A DNA stretch of 63,645 bases, filler included, from Reticulomyxa filosa (Eukaryota; Protista; Foraminifera), in NCBI GenBank assembly GCA_000512085.1. It is 19 parts of 19 records of this genome, joined end to end, with 100 filler letters (N's around TTAATTAATTAA, not from the genome) between each part and the next. Parts side by side here need not be neighbours in the genome. Positions count along the whole stretch, not along the records: positions 31,158 to 32,423 come from ASPP01003115.1; 18 more parts are not named here. One strand, written 5' to 3'. Position 1 is the first letter of the stretch, and the number at the start of each line of letters is the position of its first letter. Under the pieces are notes generated by a model. The model had not been told where the DNA came from. It worked only from the letters and a program-made list of their open reading frames with translations, and did not search any database. A program made the translations under genes and the position numbers. Shown piece by piece: positions 131 through 63,645 of the stretch.

Positions 131-3100
131 CCGGGACATCTGATGCGCGGCATGTGTGACATGTTGATTGGTGGATGTAAAGATAACTCAACGCCAAGCG
201 AAAAAGACAAATTAAAATGGTTGAATGACAACTTTGGGAAGTTTACATCTGCGGCGTTCACGAAGGAAGACCTGGGCGAACTCATGCGAATTTGTCGTGG
301 AATCAATGACTATGGACGATCTGATGTCGATGTTGAATTAGATGAAAATGGTGTGTCTTATCAAAACAAACAAACAAAAAAGTAAAATGAATTTTTTTTT
401 TTTTTTTTTAAAAAAAAAGGTGCAATCGAAAATGTGAAGTGGGAAGACGACGACGAAGAACCATATGAACTCCGTGAAAAAGACGACGAAGGAGAAGACA
501 GCGGGGACGATGCATTTGCGTCGTTTGAAGACCCCGATCGAAAGGAACGTGAGAAGCAACGAGGAGAACAAGCCAACCAACAATTAGTGAGTAACATGCC
601 AGTGGACGACGATGACGATGTCGACATCGTCCCAGTGAACAACAATGAGACCGATAAGCGAGAGGACGCCACTAATGTGGACCGTGCCAAACGAGAGCCT
701 CCCACCAAAAGCAACACTGACAATGAAACCAATGAAAGTGACAAAAGCAAACGCATGGACGTGGACGGAGAAACAGTCAACACTAACACGCCAGACATGA
801 GTTTGAGCGCTAGCAAATTTGAAATCTCTCCAAAAGAAATCGATGCGCACTGGCTTCAACGAAAAGTCAGACAGCACTTTAAACACTTGGACGACCCTCT
901 CACCCTTTCCGAAAAGTTGTTGAAAGCCTTAGATCAAAGCAATCCAAGAAAAGTCGAGGAACAATTGGTTGCTTTAGTCGAGTTTAGTTGTCTGTATTTT
1001 CCACACTTGTTTTTTTTTGTTTTTTTTTAATATACACATATGGCATATATGACAACACATACAGTACATAAACATATATATGTATATATATATATATATG
1101 TGTATATACATATGTATGTATATGTATTACATCATTTTTTATTTTCTTGTGAATGCAGATATCAAGACTGGGAATTTTCGAAACAATTATTACGCAACAA
1201 AGACATAATTGTGTGGTGCACAAAACGCAAACGTGCAAAGGATGCACAACAGCTGCAGGAGATTGACTCGCACATGGCCAATGACCCAAAGCTGTGCATG
1301 ATATTGGAAGAGCTCGAGCGTACCCATGGTACGGCAGAGGCACGTACGAAGCAGTTTGTGCACACGATCCACCGGGAAGCCAAAACGCTGAAGCAGCAGT
1401 TTTTGAAACAGCAGCGAGGAGGAGGAGGAGCAGGAGGAGCAGGAGCGACAGGAGGTGGGATTGGCGTCGGAGGAGACGAGACTGCCGCCACTAGTGGCAC
1501 GTCCAACAATGGGACTGCCACTACGCCAAGCAGTGCCAGCATGGATACTGACGCAGCTTTGGCAGCGGATGAAATCGAAGAAAGTCAAGGGATTGAAGTC
1601 GAAAGCAAACCCGAGTTGTCTGCGATAGATGTAGCCACAACTGCGAAAAAAAGCGCAGTGCGTAATGAACCCGTGTATGGCGCGCCCAAAGATTTAAGCG
1701 ATCTTGCACATTGGAGTAAGACTCACAACAGTAAAAGCATGTTGGACTTGGAAGGTTTGTCATTTGCACAAGGCGGACATTACATTAGCGAAACGAGTTG
1801 GAATTTGCATGGAGGAAGCAAGTCCATCCAACACAAGGGCTATTTGGAAGTGATTGTACCTGCATTGCAAAATAAAAACAACACGCAGATTCCGTTAGTA
1901 CCGATTAGTCAGATTGACGAATGGGCACAAGCTGCGTTTGTGGATGATAGCAACGAGTCGGATGGAGATAACAGTAACGATTTTGTTCCGCTGAAGTCGT
2001 TGAACAGCATTCAAAGTCAATGCTATGAGTTTGCGATGAAACGTCCCGAAAACATGCTGCTGTGTGCGCCGACAGGGGCCGGGAAAACCAACGTGGCGTT
2101 GTTATGCATTTTGAGAGAGATTGGATTGCGAAGAAATCCAAAGACAGGAGAAATTGATAAGAATAGTTTCAAATGTGTATACATTGCCCCAATGAAGTCG
2201 TTGGTGAGAGAAGTGGTTTTGAAATTTACGCAAAAGTTTACAAAGCCTTATGGAATCAAAGTGGCGGAAATGAGCGGAGATCACATGTTGACACAGGAAC
2301 AGCTGTTTGATACGCAGATCATTGTGACGACCCCGGAAAAATGGGATGTGATGACAAGAAAAGGAATGGATCGCACGTACACGGCCTTGGTGAAATTGAT
2401 AATAATTGACGAAATTCATTTGTTGCACGACACCAGAGGTCCTGTGTTGGAAGCCATTGTGGCCAGAACACATCGCCACATTGAGACTTCGATGGACCAT
2501 ATTCGATTGGTGGCGTTGAGTGCGACATTGCCCAATTACAAAGACGTGGCATTGTTTTTGAGATGTGAAAGTGACGGAATTTTCTACTTTGACAACGGCT
2601 ATCGTCCCATTCCATTGTCGCAAAGGTTTGTTGGTGTCACGTGGAAACGCGCCTATCGTCAGTACCAATTGATGAATGATCTCTGCTACGACTACGTCAT
2701 GGAACAGATGGCCAAGAAACAACAGGTCATTGTATTTGTTCATTCGCGAAAGGAAACCATGAATACATGCAAGTATTTGATCGGCAAGTGCGAAGAGAAC
2801 ACTTGCTTGGACAGAGTGTTAAGTGACGACAGCGGGGAAATGGAAATTCTGCGCACCGAGTCCAAAAATGTTGTGGACACCAACCTAAGTGATTTACTGT
2901 GCAAAGGCTTTGGCATTCATCACGCTGGTATGTCTCGAAGTGACCGAGTTTTGGTGGAGGATTTGTTTCGTGCTCGAGTGCTGAAGGTGCTCGTCAGTAC
3001 GTCCACCTTGGCGTGGGGGGTTAACATGCCCGCACATGCTGTCATTATCAAAGGCACCCAAGTATACGACGCCGAAAAAGGCAAGTGGTGTGAACTGAGC

Positions 3101-6100
3101 ATGTTGGATGTGTTGCAAATGTTTGGTCGAGCAGGCCGACCTCCATTCGACAGCTATGGTGAGGGTATCCTAATTACCACGCATCCGGAGTTGAAGTATT
3201 ACATGCCATTGTTGAACGAACAAATGCCAATTGAATCCCAACTGTTGCAAAAATTACCCGATATTTTGAACGCCGAAATCGTGTTGGGAACAGTCCAGCA
3301 CTTGAAAGAAGCCGTGGATTGGCTGAGTTATACGTACCTGTTTGTTCGCATGTGCAAGAGTCCAACCATTTATGGCGTGTCCAATGACGTCTTGCAAAAT
3401 GACAAGTATTTGTTGCAACGAAGAATTGACTTGCTTCACACGAGCGCCATCATTTTGGAAAAGTGTCACATGCTCAAATACGATAAAAACACAGGATACT
3501 TTCAAAGCGCGGATATGGGAAGAGTGGCAGCACATTATTACATCTCGCATGAGAGCATTGAAACGTATAATGAGTACTTGCGACCGACATTGAGTGATAT
3601 TGAAATATTGCGAGTGTTTAGTCTTAGTGGGGAATTTAAATACATTAGCGTGCGAGACGGTGAAAAAGATGAGTTATCGAAATTGATCGACAAAGTGCCG
3701 GTCCCAATCAAAGAGTCGATGGAAGAAAGCGCTAGCAAAATCAATGTGTTGCTGCAAACATATATTGCGCGATTAAAACTTGATGGATTTCAATTGATTG
3801 CCGATATGTGCTATGTCACTCAATCTGCCGCGCGTTTATTCCGCTGTTTGTTTGAAATGGTGTTGAAGCGCCAATGGGCACAGGTGACCATGCGAGTGTT
3901 GACTTTTTGCAAAATGATCGCCCATCGAATGTGGAGCATTGAAAGTCCTTTGCGACAATTCAACGCGATGAGCAGTGCCCCTTGTATCCCCAACTTGTGC
4001 ATCCAAAGATTGGAACGAGCAAACATGTCTTGGGAAGGCTATCTGCGCTTGAAGGCAGAGGAAATTGGCGAGTTGATTCGAATGCAAGAATTGGGCAAAT
4101 TGGTGTACAAATACATCCACGCCATCCCCAAAATGGAATGCAAAGGATTGGTGCAACCCATTACACGAAGTGTGATTAAAGTGGATCTGTCCTTGGTTGC
4201 CGACTTTGAATGGATTGACGAATTCCATTACAACTCGCAAGAGTTTTGGATCTTTGTCGAAGATGTCGATAGCGAGCATATTTTGCATTACGAGTACTTT
4301 ATTTTGAAAAAAAAGTTTTTATCCAACGAACATCATCTTTCATTCACAATTCCCATCACGCATCCATTGCCTCCTCAGTACTTTATTCGAATTGTCAGTG
4401 ACAAATGGCTCGGAAGTGAGACGGTATTGCCCATTTCCTTCCGCTTGCTTATATTACCGGAAAAGTTCAAACCCGCCACCGAGCTGTTGGATCTGCAGCC
4501 CTTGCCCATCAAGTCGATGCAACTGGAACAACCGCTGTTGCAATCCATCTTTCCATTCGACTACTTTAACGCCATTCAAACACAAGTGTTTGGTAATTTG
4601 TATCGATCTGCCGAAAACTTGTTGCTATGTGCGCCCATCAATAGTGGCAAAATCACTTGCGCGGAAATTGCACTGTTGAAAAACGTCATCGAGTTTCCCA
4701 ATTGCAAAGGAGTGTACATTAGTCCAATCGAAGAGATTTGTCGCTATCGATACAAGCAATGGAAGATTAAATTTGAGGACAATAAATTTTTGGAAGAGAA
4801 ATGCAAAGTCGTTTTGACCACAGGAGATCGCAATTTGGACTTGAAAAAAATTGAAAGTGGACGAATCATTGTCACCACCCCGGAACATTGGGATAACATT
4901 AGTCGTCGTTGGCGCAGCCGTCCTGTTGTTCAAAGCGTCAGTGTTATCGTCTGTGATGACTTGCATTTGATCGGCAGTGGTCAACAAGGTGCAACCTATG
5001 AGATGGTCGTATCGCGAATGCGCGCAATGAAGGAAGAGTTGAAAAGTCCTTTACGTATGATCGGATTATCAGTACCTATTGCAAATGCATCCGACTTTGG
5101 TCTTTGGATCGGAGCCCCTTTATCACATATTTACAACTTTGAGCCCATGGTCCGACCTATTCCAATCAATATCCACTTTGAAGTGTCCGATTTGAACAAT
5201 GTCGAGTCTCGACACATGTACTTCTTAAAGCCTTGCTATTTACATATCACTCGCTATTGTCCAAAGGGACGTGTTATCATATTTTGTCCTTCCGCAAAGC
5301 ATTGTCGTCGATTGGCTGGTGACTTGTGCGCATATGCTGCCAGTGACATATCTCCACATCGTTTCCTTCGTGTTAACAAAGAGGATTTAATGAAAGACCC
5401 ACACTGCAATGATATCAAACATCATAAAGAACTTTGGGAGTGTGTGAGTCGAGGCGTGGGATATTTGACCCCGTACATGGACGAAAAGAAAAAACAAGCC
5501 GTTGCCAGATTGTTCCGCAATGATTGTATTCAGCTGCTAGTTGTCGAGCACTCCTTGTGCTGGAGTTTGGACGAGTACGATACATTTGACGACAAGTCAC
5601 GTGAAAACGAGCGCGGAAGTGGCAAAAAAATGGAAGCGTCGATGGTCATCATTATGGACACACAGTATTATAATGGATTGTATCATGAGTATGTGGACTA
5701 CTCACTGCCGGAGGTCATTCAAATGATGGGCAAGGCCAATCACAGCAATAAAATGCAAGGTGCAGTTCGTTGTGTCGTGTTCTGTCACTCGTCAAAGCGA
5801 GCCTTTTTAAACAAATTCTTGACTCATGCTTTCCCTGTGGAAAGTGCCTTGGAGGCATTCATTGACGATCATTTGAACGCGGAAATTGCTCAAGAATCGG
5901 TCAGTGATGCCAATGACGCTATCGACGTGCTGACATGGACCTATTACTTCCGACGATTGACCAAAAATCCAAATTACTATGGATTAAAAGGAGTCACGGA
6001 CGTGGAACTCAGTCAACATTTGTCCGAGCTTGTGGAAGAGTCTTTAACATCCTTGTACAACGCCAAATGCATTCATGTGGATGAAGAGATGTCCGTGGAG

Positions 6101-7239
6101 CCTTTGAATTATTCGCTGATTGCGGTGTATCATTACATGAGTTGTCACACTATCGAAAGAATGCACAATCTCATAACGCCCCGAAATCAACTTGCTGAAT
6201 TGCTGAGTATTATTGCAGCGGCGGTAGAGCTCGAAGATATTCCAATACGCAATAACGAAGAGTATGCCATTGAAAAAATGTCCAAACATTTGCCCCTAAA
6301 AATTCCACTTCAATCACGCTACACCGACACTTCCACCAAAGTGAACGTATTGCTGCAGACGCATTTTATTCGTCGTCCGCTTCAAGGTGCCATTCGCTAT
6401 GATCGCACTCAAATATTGAAGAAAGTGTTTCCAGTGGCTTGTGCTTTGGTAGATATGGCCTCGAGCAAAAAAGTGTTAGTCCCGACCTTGCAAAGTGTCC
6501 ATTTGTGTCAGATGATTGTGCAGGCCGTCCTGATTGGTGACTCACCCTTGTTACAATTGCCACACTTGACTTATGACAAAGTGGAAGTGTTACGAAAGCA
6601 ACACAAGATTGAAGACATATTCGATTTAACGGAAATGGGAGACCACGCAATGAAAGTATTGAATAACCTTGGTGTCACTGCAAAAGAATGCGCGGATATT
6701 GCAAATGTCACAAATGTCATACCTAATGTTGGATTAGAGTGCTTCGTCTTGAATGACCAAAACGAAGTAAAGGCAGGTGAAAAGCTACAATTAGTAGTTC
6801 GAGTTGAAAGAGATGACCCCTTTGAAGAGGAGAGCAGCGACAGTGATGATAACAAACAAAATGAGCAAAAACAAAAATCACGAATTCAAAAGAAAAAGAA
6901 AAACTTTTCACGCCTCCGTCTGTATTTGCCCCTCGCTTTCCATTGAAAGAAAAACAAGAAACGTGGTATGTTATTATTGGAGATACCAAAGCCAATCGAT
7001 TGTTTGCAAATAAACGATTCACAATGGATCGGCTCTGGAAAGATTTAACATTCGAATTGGAAGTCGGCAATAGTAGTGACGCCCATGAATGGGAAGTCCA
7101 CTTGATGTGTGATAGTTATTTGGGATGTGATCAAAAAGAAACTGTCCGCTTCAAAGTGTTGGAAAATAAAGCAATGGACGTTGATGGTCCTGACGACCAA
7201 CACACTCTCCCCTCGGAACATAACGAAAAACAAAACTAA
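131..7239 (+). CDS. SNRNP200: U5 snRNP 200-kDa Ski2-like RNA helicase Brr2 (5' truncated, introns ~351-419 and ~982-1158, frameshift near 6866-6900)
   Basis: N-terminal plug-like exon, PWI-like IDAHWLQRK, Walker A CAPTGAGKT, DEIH box, SATLPN, HHAGM, LQMFGRAGRP, Sec63 units, a second degenerate cassette (CAPINSGK/DDLH), and C-terminal FAPRFP..ETWYVIIGD...CDSYLGCDQ. Confidence 0.97.
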
Positions 7240-31049: not shown

Positions 31050-32021
31050 TTTATTTGNNNNNNNNNNNNNNNNNNNNNNNNNNNNNNNNNNNNNNNNNNN
31101 NTTAATTAATTAANNNNNNNNNNNNNNNNNNNNNNNNNNNNNNNNNNNNNNNNNNNNTTGGGTTGTGGTGCTCATTGTAACATTACATATGACATACACG
31201 AGTTGGTAGCTGACACTTCAAGCTTCAACGAAACACAATGCTAGCTATGATGGAAAAATGGCAAATTTAATGAGTAAGGCATTTTGCATTTACTTTATCT
31301 ATGTCCACAAAGGAATGAAAGAGATTGCTATGCAAATTATTGAATGCTATCACAAAGAAATAATACACAATATTTCCACAGTGCATAAGAATATTACATA
31401 TGCATATAGTTAGCATACAATGTCCGAGAAGATCTTTTTGATATAATGAGCTGCGAAAATGTAAGTCTGTGTATATGTATATGTTTCATTTGTTTAAAAA
31501 CAAGCTTTCGAAGAATAAGAGAAAAGGTTGAACTTATATGGTTTGTGTAAATGAAAACACAGTTACATCATTTCACTTAGTTTGCAAGTGGACAATTGAA
31601 ATATAGTTATTCAATTTGTGCATAAGAATCTTGGAAAAAGGAAAAGGACAACATGTGTGCAAATGATCGATTATATGTTAAACCAGCGTTGAAATAAATA
31701 ATTTCATATGATTTTATCTAAAGAGAAAGATATATGACCTAGAATTATCATTTTCAAATTTTTCAATTTAAATTAATAATAAATTTATAAATACAATTAC
31801 AATTCTAATTTATTCTAAAAAAACTAAAACACAAATGATAGAAATCCAATACTGCAAAATCAGGACAAGAATATCCAAGTTAATGCCACACTATTTCAAA
31901 CAAACAAAGTTTGTAATTGTGATTGCAAAAAACATAATAGACAACAATCAAGCATAAATCGTAGAAAGATAAATAAAACTTGGAATCAAGCGAATATCAA
32001 TCGTTGGACGGCCGTTGAATA

Positions 32022-32335
32022 GTTGAGTTGACCACATTAATGAATATTGCAAGCCATCACAAGATGGTGCTTGCACACCCCCAATATAATCAACTGTAGA
32101 CCAGTAAGAAGAGAAGAGGGGGGGGGGGTGGAATAAAGGGGATGCAACGCATCCCAAAGCTAGTCTATATCTATTAACCAAGCCATATGGCCGGTAATAG
32201 ATAAACCGCTTTAAACTGAAGTTGTTGTAATGTCGCCCACATGAGTGGACTCTTTCACCGCAGGACTGGTGCTATCAACAACTTCAAACGACGCGAATAT
32301 CGCATCGTATCTACTGGTCTACAGGAACGCTCAAC
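32022..32335 (-). ncRNA. Candidate structured non-coding RNA of unknown family
   Basis: Seven nested helices visible, including perfect 13-bp (32094-32106/32312-32324) and 11-bp (32217-32227/32276-32286) long-range stems; most A-C mismatches on + become G-U on -. Confidence 0.5.
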
Positions 32336-32523
32336 AATATCGAAGACAAAACACTAGTAGCCACTTTCCGGTATCCATCACAGGAATCACATCACCACCA
32401 TAGATTACATCCAATTGATCATGNNNNNNNNNNNNNNNNNNNNNNNNNNNNNNNNNNNNNNNNNNNNTTAATTAATTAANNNNNNNNNNNNNNNNNNNNN
32501 NNNNNNNNNNNNNNNNNNNNNNN

Positions 32524-62383: not shown

Positions 62384-62626
62384 CTGTTAAAAAAAAAAAA
62401 AAAAAAAAAATCAATAGCAGTTAATTTTTGTACTTCTTTCAATACACGTATCTGTCTGCAAGTTTGTGATGTTTTTAACCCCTTTTTTTTTTTTTTTTTT
62501 TTTTTTNNNNNNNNNNNNNNNNNNNNNNNNNNNNNNNNNNNNNNNNNNNNTTAATTAATTAANNNNNNNNNNNNNNNNNNNNNNNNNNNNNNNNNNNNNN
62601 NNNNNNATATATACATATATGTACAT

Positions 62627-62686
62627 ATATATATATGTACATATATATATATGTACATATATATATATGTACATATATGTATATGT
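62627..62686. repeat. AT-rich intronic tandem repeat (GTACATATATATAT-like units)
   Basis: Read directly from sequence. Confidence 0.8.
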
Positions 62687-62751
62687 ATAATTTATTTATA
62701 AACGTATACGTATTTTCCGATTTGTTTAACGTATACTACATTACTCTTTAG

Positions 62752-63645
62752 TTATGTCTATGCAATGATTCTAATGCATTGTGGTGTAAACTCGCTGGTG
62801 TTCATTTGGGGAATTGTCGCACTCGACTTGGGCTTGAGCGAGGTAGCGTTTGGCTTTGTGTGGCTGTTTCGACAAATGTGCTCGGCGGTGTCCAGCATAC
62901 TGTTGCCGTACTTGGCGGATAATCGCAAGTGGGGGTTTGACACGATGATGTTGGTGTGCAGTTCAATGACGGGACTATTCTTGCTATTGTTGGCAGTGTC
63001 GCAATTGTTGCAGCATCGTAGTTACTTAGCGTCACAGCTGCTGTTTGTGATTTGCTTTGGAGGACTGGGACTGTTCGGTTCGACGAGTGTGCTGGCCAGT
63101 CGTTTGTCCAGCAAAATATTGGACCGCGAAAATGCGCTGGACTATCACGCGTATATCGAAGTGAGCGAACTCTTGCCTTACACTGTCGGAGTGTCCGTAG
63201 TCGGAGCTATGGTTACGTATCTGAATACGTACTACTACCCCTTTTTTGCATGTTTGCTCATGGTGATCTTGTCCTTCTGCTTCACTTTGATCTGGGTTCG
63301 TCCGTCTTGGAAAGACTTTAACGACATCAGTGATCACACCACTCGCCATATCGAAATGACGAGCATGAATGTCAATATTTATATGACCAACGAATTGGAC
63401 CTGTTCCAGCCCTTTGATGCCGAAAAGGCCAAGTCGGTGGATCTGCTGTCGCCCCATTTGGATCGCATCTTGTCCAATCCCACGTTACCGTTTCCAAAAG
63501 AAAATGAACGTCAAACAAGTGGTGAGCCTGGCTCCCTTGGCAGCAGCAATCGTCCTCATGGATTTTCGATCAATCGCGAAGTCAGTGGAGGAGGAGGAGG
63601 AGGAGGAGGTATGGTTGATCAAAATCGAAGAAAACCAAAGCAAAA
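62752..63645 (+). CDS. MFS-type transporter exon (6 TM helices plus cytoplasmic loop), open to window end; absent from the ORF track
   Basis: After the TTTAG acceptor: YVYAMILMHCGVNSLVFIWGIVALDLGLSEVAFGFVWLFRQMCSAVSSILLPYLADNRKWGFD... (motif-A-like LADNRKWG), no stop before 63645. Confidence 0.7.

What the first reader, a model, noticed from the sequence alone, without database searches (positions are those of the whole stretch)
32022..32335. Unannotated, highly nested structured-RNA candidate (minus strand favoured)
Seen: a GC-richer island in a contig with no credible gene, forming a hierarchy of helices. An outer GTTGAG(32022-27)/CTCAAC(32330-35) stem encloses a hairpin at 32048-32075 and a perfect 13-bp stem, CTGTAGACCAGTA(32094-106)/TACTGGTCTACAG(32312-24). 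That stem closes a multiloop containing a purine tract (32107-38; polypyrimidine on -), hairpin GGGATGC-aac-GCATCCC (32139-55), a long hairpin at 32156-32212, and hairpin 32288-32308. It also contains a perfect 11-bp stem, TGAAGTTGTTG/CAACAACTTCA (32217-27/32276-86), which closes a 3-way junction (CCAC/GTGG and CACC/GGTG hairpins). Several A-C mismatches on + become G-U wobbles on -, which suggests selection on a minus-strand RNA. I could not match hammerhead, twister, pistol, HDV, SRP, RNase P/MRP, snRNA or TTAGGG-telomerase-template motifs by eye. Inference: a novel ncRNA, an IRES-like or ribozyme module, or the structured UTR of a retroelement or endogenous viral element.
Basis: partly seen in the sequence, partly recalled or inferred. 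Interest (0 to 1): 0.8.

Follow-up and report, generated by a model that had tools for sequence, protein, structure and literature searches.

The report
Folded RNA cargo in miniature transposon
A 314-base stretch in a protist (likely foraminiferan) genome is predicted to fold into an unusually stable branched RNA on one strand and has matching ends with a 4-base repeat on both sides, so it is likely a small gene-less jumping element carrying a structured RNA that matches no catalogued family.

Summary
Nine stems checked by coordinate are present. The minus strand folds at -127.9 kcal/mol (z -8.5, 0 of 100 shuffles), the plus strand at -104.8 (z -5.2). It has the lowest energy against 362 same-length control windows. 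The minus fold has 15 G-U pairs and no 1x1 mismatch; 0 of 450 neutral-decay simulations reached this strand bias. New here: the 3' hairpin is longer than reported (32093-32028, 29 bp, 8 G-U), and the 6-bp terminal stem is flanked on both sides by AATA (stem plus 4-nt repeat in 27 of 200,000 flank shuffles, a post-hoc test). It also stops a 64-codon open frame at its first bases. No Rfam family matched, no credible ribozyme, SRP, RNase P/MRP or telomerase motif was found, and no homologue appeared among 79 fetched loci, phages or plasmids. No host genome or sequencing run was available, so copy number, covariation and expression are untested. Best reading (0.4): a non-autonomous transposon moved by an enzyme encoded elsewhere, whose minus-strand transcript is likely a selected protein-binding scaffold. 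Rivals: an orphan cellular ncRNA gene, a DNA-only palindrome element, a Helentron-type element, or an integrated RNA replicon.

The parts
32022..32335 (-). Whole element, 314 nt, predicted nested RNA fold
32330..32335 (-). 5' arm of the terminal 6-bp stem (candidate terminal inverted repeat)
   Evidence: probability 0.98 alone, 0.53 with flanks
32022..32027 (-). 3' arm of the terminal stem
32018..32021 (+). AATA, left copy of the candidate 4-bp target-site duplication
   Evidence: sequence; chance test
32336..32339 (+). AATA, right copy of the candidate target-site duplication
   Evidence: sequence; chance test
32311..32324 (-). 5' strand of the 14-bp core-closing helix (13 Watson-Crick + 1 G-U)
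32094..32107 (-). 3' strand of the core-closing helix
32288..32308 (-). 9-bp hairpin with a triloop
32216..32287 (-). 12-bp helix closing a three-way junction with hairpins 32271-32256 and 32250-32235
32156..32212 (-). Long bulged hairpin, 24 bp, 3 G-U
32139..32155 (-). 7-bp G+C-rich hairpin just 5' of the single-stranded tract
32108..32138 (-). 31-nt predicted single-stranded pyrimidine tract with C11; its CACCCCC could pair with GGGGGUG at 32082-32076 as an alternative pseudoknot
   Evidence: -13.4 kcal helix against +10.5 to open the competing pairs, loop costs not counted
32028..32093 (-). 3' long hairpin, 29 bp, 8 G-U
   Evidence: its lower half is absent from the DNA centroid
31828..32022 (+). 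64-codon open frame whose TAG stop uses the element's first base; possible interrupted exon or pseudogene, no relatives found

Best explanation
The 314-nt stretch is likely a small non-autonomous transposon, with short inverted ends and a likely 4-bp target duplication, whose minus-strand transcript is predicted to fold into a nested scaffold that selection has likely preserved. Shown: the stems, the strand bias, the 6-bp end complementarity, the AATA repeat on both sides, and a 64-codon frame that stops at the boundary. Inferred: a DDE-type transposase or integrase encoded elsewhere recognised the ends and inserted the element into an exon-like sequence. Inferred: the element is transcribed on the minus strand, and its RNA binds a protein of the parent element. 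The closest worked-out logic is that of Fanzor-type transposons, whose end repeats and target duplication form part of a guide-RNA scaffold; I give that specific partner about 0.1. The 31-nt pyrimidine tract would be the exposed protein- or nucleic-acid-binding handle.
For: Fold z -8.5; 96 of 111 minus pairs have probability above 0.9. 15 G-U and 0 1x1 mismatches. The observed strand difference of -23.1 kcal/mol was not reached in 450 neutral-decay simulations (most negative -21.4). The G-U-rich lower 3' stem holds with RNA but not DNA parameters. A terminal stem of 6 bp or more arose in 4,456 of 200,000 flank shuffles, and 27 of those also had a 4-nt or longer flanking repeat. The chance of a given frame staying open for 64 codons is 0.0095, and removing the element plus one AATA leaves an 85-codon frame across the junction. 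PMC10711439 (passages read) describes TIRs and TSDs forming part of Fanzor1 reRNA scaffolds.
Against: No second copy or empty site was seen: none in the window, and the host genome is not held. Six bp is very short for a terminal repeat, and the stem has only 0.53 probability in context. The junction tests were designed after seeing the data. The host frame is ambiguous: other removal lengths also leave open frames (93 codons for 316 nt on plus, 53 for 314 nt on minus), and the codon model is weak (upstream frame score negative; 3 of 6 control stretches had a positive frame). Three of 362 control windows show a strand difference as large, and 7 of 450 simulations did so in the opposite direction. 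No transposase lies on the contig. Text searches of two Fanzor supplements found no Reticulomyxa, Foraminifera or Rhizaria.
Confidence: 0.4

Rival explanations
1. A stand-alone cellular non-coding RNA gene of an unknown or extremely diverged kind, with the AATA repeat a coincidence. A telomerase RNA is the most notable sub-case (about 0.04).
For: The outer frame (5'/3' end pairing, core-closing helix and long 3' stem meeting at a three-way junction, plus a hairpin 5' of a C-rich single strand) resembles plant telomerase RNA as described in PMC8287931 section 29. That paper could not support any rhizarian candidate (passage). The length of about 300 nt is typical of such RNAs (recalled).
Against: None of five common telomere template hexamers on minus. 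No room for a pseudoknot 3' of the single strand inside the core. No Rfam hit to E 10 for SRP, RNase P, MRP, U3 or snRNAs. No GNRA/UUCG loop in the predicted hairpins, no Sm, C/D or B-box motif; first T4 run 44 nt downstream and no upstream TATA match. Does not explain the flanking repeat.
Confidence: 0.2
2. An ordinary MITE built of nested DNA inverted repeats. The RNA fold is a by-product, and the wobble bias comes from strand-biased mutation.
For: Most stems are perfect Watson-Crick, so both strands fold, also as DNA (z -6.2 and -4.9). The loops are not typical tertiary-contact tetraloops. Unchecked earlier notes describe bacterial elements of this type.
Against: 15 G-U with no other mismatch; 0 of 450 symmetric-decay simulations reach the bias. 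A branched three-way junction is unusual for duplication-derived palindromes (own knowledge).
Confidence: 0.17
3. A non-autonomous Helentron (HINE/DINE-1-like) rolling-circle element whose displaced single DNA strand folds. The 13-bp stem would be the subterminal inverted repeat and the 3' hairpin the terminal palindrome.
For: A 13-bp asymmetric inverted repeat, TT one base before its 5' arm, a hairpin tip ending 27 nt from the 3' end and an internal simple repeat fit part of the description in PMC4067079 (passages).
Against: The 3' arm is 72 nt from the end (38-60 described). The 3' flank is not TT. HINEs make no target duplication, which leaves the outer stem and AATA unexplained. The G-T-rich stem is unstable as DNA.
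Confidence: 0.12
4. An integrated copy of a viroid-like or satellite RNA replicon, or a non-coding RNA of one of this host's endogenous DNA viruses.
For: About 300 nt, branched, both polarities fold, ends complementary. Unchecked notes report endogenous viruses in this genome. A weak Pfam Pox_E10 match lies at 31270-31485 on minus (E 1.5e-4, below the cut-off).
Against: No ribozyme found. The E10-like frame has no real relatives (one search gave one repetitive protein). No homologue in the viral scans.
Confidence: 0.08

Closest known systems
Non-autonomous TIR/TSD transposons (MITEs)
   Same: Short, gene-less, complementary ends, flanking direct repeat, appears to interrupt an open frame.
   Different: Terminal repeat only 6 bp; the interior is a branched fold with one-strand G-U bias; copy number unknown.
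Fanzor1 non-autonomous transposons with reRNA (PMC10711439, passages)
   Same: TIR plus short TSD element in which the ends could be part of a folded RNA.
   Different: No Fanzor gene here; the whole 314 nt is folded rather than a three-stem right-end RNA; no rhizarian name found in two supplements.
HINE / DINE-1 non-autonomous Helentrons (PMC4067079, passages)
   Same: 13-bp asymmetric inverted repeat, 3' stem-loop, internal simple repeat.
   Different: Spacing out of range, no TT at the 3' side, apparent TSD, highly structured interior.
Plant-type telomerase RNA (PMC8287931, section 29)
   Same: End pairing, core-closing helix and long 3' stem at a three-way junction; hairpin 5' of a C-rich single strand.
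   Different: No recognised template, no pseudoknot 3' of the single strand inside the core, no TATA or adjacent U-run.

Membership tests
MITE / non-autonomous DNA transposon | Terminal inverted repeats | tested here: inconclusive
   6 bp perfect; 2.2% by chance alone
MITE / non-autonomous DNA transposon | Target-site duplication | tested here: inconclusive
   AATA on both sides; 27 of 4,456 stem-bearing shuffles; no empty site available
MITE / non-autonomous DNA transposon | No coding capacity | tested here: met
   No Pfam or PHROG family over the element in six frames; no homologue of the 107-codon frame
MITE / non-autonomous DNA transposon | Multiple dispersed copies and a partner transposase | not testable with these tools
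   Genome not held; no copy in the 63.6-kb window
Fanzor/TnpB right-end RNA | Linked or trans-acting Fanzor protein in the host | not testable with these tools
   None on the contig; names absent from two supplements
Fanzor/TnpB right-end RNA | Pseudoknot between terminal bases and an apical loop (TnpB, Fanzor2; absent in Fanzor1) | tested here: inconclusive
   By inspection the last 5 nt do not match any apical loop listed; a different 7-bp alternative helix exists
HINE / Helentron | 12-15 bp subterminal inverted repeats, 3' arm 38-60 bp from the end | tested here: not met
   13 bp present but 72 nt from the end
HINE / Helentron | T-rich insertion site with at least two T at each end and no duplication | tested here: not met
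   The 3' flank on minus reads TATT, and a 4-nt repeat is present
Telomerase RNA | Template of more than one telomere repeat | tested here: inconclusive
   None of five common hexamers (recalled) on minus; the host telomere repeat is unknown to me
Telomerase RNA | Pseudoknot 3' of the template within the core | tested here: not met
   The single strand abuts the closing helix
Telomerase RNA | Core-closing helix, long 3' stem and end pairing | tested here: met
   Predicted fold
SRP, RNase P/MRP, U3, snRNA and other Rfam families | Covariance-model match | tested here: not met
   0 at gathering; only chance-level hits at E 1-10
Self-cleaving ribozymes (hammerhead, HDV-like, twister, pistol) | Conserved core and topology | tested here: not met
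   No CUGANGA. HDV descriptor: 0 rows on plus; 11 on minus, all ending outside the element, G-U-rich and lacking the conserved L3. No Rfam hit
Functional structured RNA (any) | Covariation among homologues and a transcript | not testable with these tools
   No homologue; no run listed

The most novel reading that the evidence does not exclude
A new class of mobile structured RNA. The RNA has a telomerase-RNA-like frame, and its exposed C-rich tract serves as template or handle for a reverse transcriptase or RNA-guided enzyme of the host or of a parent element, which copies it and inserts it with a 4-bp duplication.
Probability: 0.12. Interest if true: 0.85.

Novelty: new variant of a known kind. 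Interest (0 to 1): 0.5.

Why it matters
My searches listed no paper on structured RNAs or small mobile elements of Reticulomyxa or other foraminifera. If the element is a mobile RNA scaffold, its copies would lead to an undescribed RNA-protein system, either an RNA-guided nuclease or a reverse transcriptase. If it is a single-copy gene, it is a concrete candidate for an orphan rhizarian ncRNA. One BLAST of the host assembly separates these cases. If it is a DNA-only palindrome MITE, it is ordinary.

Tried and rejected
Rfam at gathering (whole window) and at E 10: chance hits only. ARAGORN: none. Host genome: not held. Sequencing runs: none was listed; this is no evidence either way, and no reads were laid. 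blastn against phages and plasmids: no match. Pattern scans: viral 0, 19, 0 and 5 loci; metagenome 4; prokaryote genomes 0 and 51. None of the 79 loci is homologous (best nhmmer E 0.74). Protein searches of flanking or overlapping frames found nothing usable; one search gave one repetitive protein. The Pox_E10 match is below the cut-off and is treated as chance. Group I/II intron: no R/S element match, and no domain V/VI pattern by inspection (consensus recalled). Spliceosomal intron or Introner: the element ends in AC, not AG. LTR solo or TRIM: the purine tract is on the less-folded strand, and there are no direct repeats. IRES: the next AUG opens only 6 codons (inspection). Assembly foldback artefact: such artefacts give one long perfect palindrome (as in L001-L004), not a branched fold with wobble bias. 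The bacterial promoter/terminator scan was at chance level. Earlier findings by sequence and by relatives: none. The supplement of PMC8287931 could not be read; it may bear on rhizarian telomerase-RNA candidates.

Full report
Setting. The window is a string of short contigs joined by N linkers; the finding lies on the 1,266-nt contig 31158-32423. The other contigs carry eukaryote-style genes. Unchecked earlier notes name the host as the foraminifer Reticulomyxa; I did not verify this. No whole genome is held and no sequencing run was listed, so copies, covariation and expression could not be examined.

Observation. The nine stems I checked are at the stated coordinates. As RNA, the plus strand folds at -104.8 kcal/mol (z -5.21) and the minus strand at -127.9 (z -8.53), with 0 of 100 shuffles as good in each case. 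On minus, 96 of 111 pairs have probability above 0.9; on plus, 60 of 97. Of 365 windows of 314 nt, 3 overlapped the element and were dropped. Against the other 362 it lies 5.7 SD below the GC regression, and the best control energy was -109. A 150-nt scan did not rank it in the top 20 of 806, probably because short windows cut its long-range helices (inference).

Anatomy (minus strand, 5' to 3'). A 6-bp terminal stem; 5 unpaired nt; a 14-bp helix closing a multiloop that holds a 9-bp hairpin, a 12-bp helix with a three-way junction, a 24-bp bulged hairpin, a 7-bp hairpin and a 31-nt unpaired pyrimidine tract; then a 29-bp hairpin (32093-32028) directly against the terminal stem. CACCCCC in the tract could instead pair with GGGGGUG in the 3' hairpin (-13.4 against +10.5 kcal/mol, loop costs not counted); this pseudoknot is unproven.

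Strand and molecule. The minus fold has 15 G-U pairs and no 1x1 mismatch. I converted these to Watson-Crick pairs and let the stems decay symmetrically: in 3 x 150 simulations none reached the observed difference of -23.1 (extreme -21.4), though 7 reached that size in the other direction. Among control windows, 3 of 362 show as large a composition-corrected strand difference. With DNA parameters both strands still beat shuffles (z -6.2 and -4.9), but the G-T-rich half of the 3' hairpin leaves the centroid. I infer selection on a minus-strand RNA; strand-biased mutation is not excluded.

Boundaries. AATA lies immediately outside both arms of the terminal stem (32018-21, 32336-39). In 200,000 shuffles of the flanks a stem of 6 bp or more appeared 4,456 times, and 27 of those also had a 4-nt or longer flanking repeat; the test was designed after seeing the data. 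With flanks included, the stem has probability 0.53. A plus-strand frame is open for 64 codons up to a TAG completed by the element's first base (0.0095 per frame). Removing the element plus one AATA leaves 85 open codons across the junction, but removing 316 nt leaves 93, and removing 314 nt leaves 53 on minus. The codon model only weakly prefers the upstream frame, and it has no relatives. These signs suggest an insertion but do not prove it.

Search for identity. Rfam gave nothing at gathering and only E 1-10 hits. Recalled motifs for hammerhead, Sm, C/D boxes, B box, group I R/S and the RNase P 3' region were absent from the element. Isolated matches (an MRP-like GAAAG..TCC at 32256, A-box-like strings) lacked their partners. 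The HDV descriptor gave no credible fold. Six-frame Pfam and PHROG scans gave only a sub-threshold Pox_E10 match 540 nt away, with no real relatives. Seven pattern scans fetched 79 loci, none homologous (nhmmer best E 0.74). Phage and plasmid blastn found nothing. These collections hold little eukaryotic DNA, so the blank says little about foraminifera.

Mechanism. I commit, at 0.4, to a non-autonomous transposon with 6-bp ends and a 4-bp duplication, inserted by a DDE-type enzyme encoded elsewhere, whose minus transcript is a selected protein-binding scaffold. Insertion, enzyme, transcription and binding are all inferred. The nearest described logic is Fanzor1, where TIR and TSD form part of the reRNA (PMC10711439, passages). 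The supplements of that paper and of PMC10530073 hold none of the three rhizarian names searched, so I give that partner about 0.1. Rivals: an orphan cellular ncRNA (0.2), whose outer frame resembles plant telomerase RNA (PMC8287931, passages and section 29) but lacks a template and core pseudoknot; a DNA-only nested MITE (0.17); a HINE-type rolling-circle element (0.12; PMC4067079, passages); an integrated replicon or viral RNA (0.08).

Literature. Ten searches, seen as listings, showed no paper on this element or on structured RNAs of this host. Passages of the Replitron preprint (10.1101/2022.12.15.520654) mention only a Rep protein from R. filosa. Subscription journals, including the host's genome paper (recalled, not seen), were not searched, and the supplement of PMC8287931 was unreadable.

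Verdict. The structure is real, non-random and strand-biased, has insertion-like borders, and belongs to no family I could test. Function and mobility are unproven for lack of homologues. Interest 0.5; new variant of a known kind.

Noticed in passing
L065:270-585 (CAXXTS010000001.1, Acidaminobacter MAG): Strongly folded multi-hairpin insert of about 300 nt between dnaK-like and dnaJ-like frames (names recalled from the translations), with an internal AGTGGTTTAGC repeat; no Rfam hit at E 0.1; unrelated to the window element.
   Followed up: partly
L001:410-810 and L003:1370-1770: Near-identical non-coding foldback palindrome of about 400 nt in two metagenome contigs.
   Followed up: no
window 31270-31485 (-): 72-codon frame with a weak Pfam Pox_E10 match (E 1.5e-4, below the cut-off); no relatives found, likely chance.
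   Followed up: yes
window 62607-62756: AT/ATGT microsatellite, the only other comparable folding outlier in the window.
   Followed up: yes
window 1031-6946 (+): 1,971-codon frame that looks like a Brr2-type spliceosomal helicase (recalled, not tested).
   Followed up: no
viral loci L005, L013-L015, L017, L019, L020, L023: A shared 67-nt stretch closed by a 10-bp inverted repeat in eight viral contigs; not related to the element.
   Followed up: no
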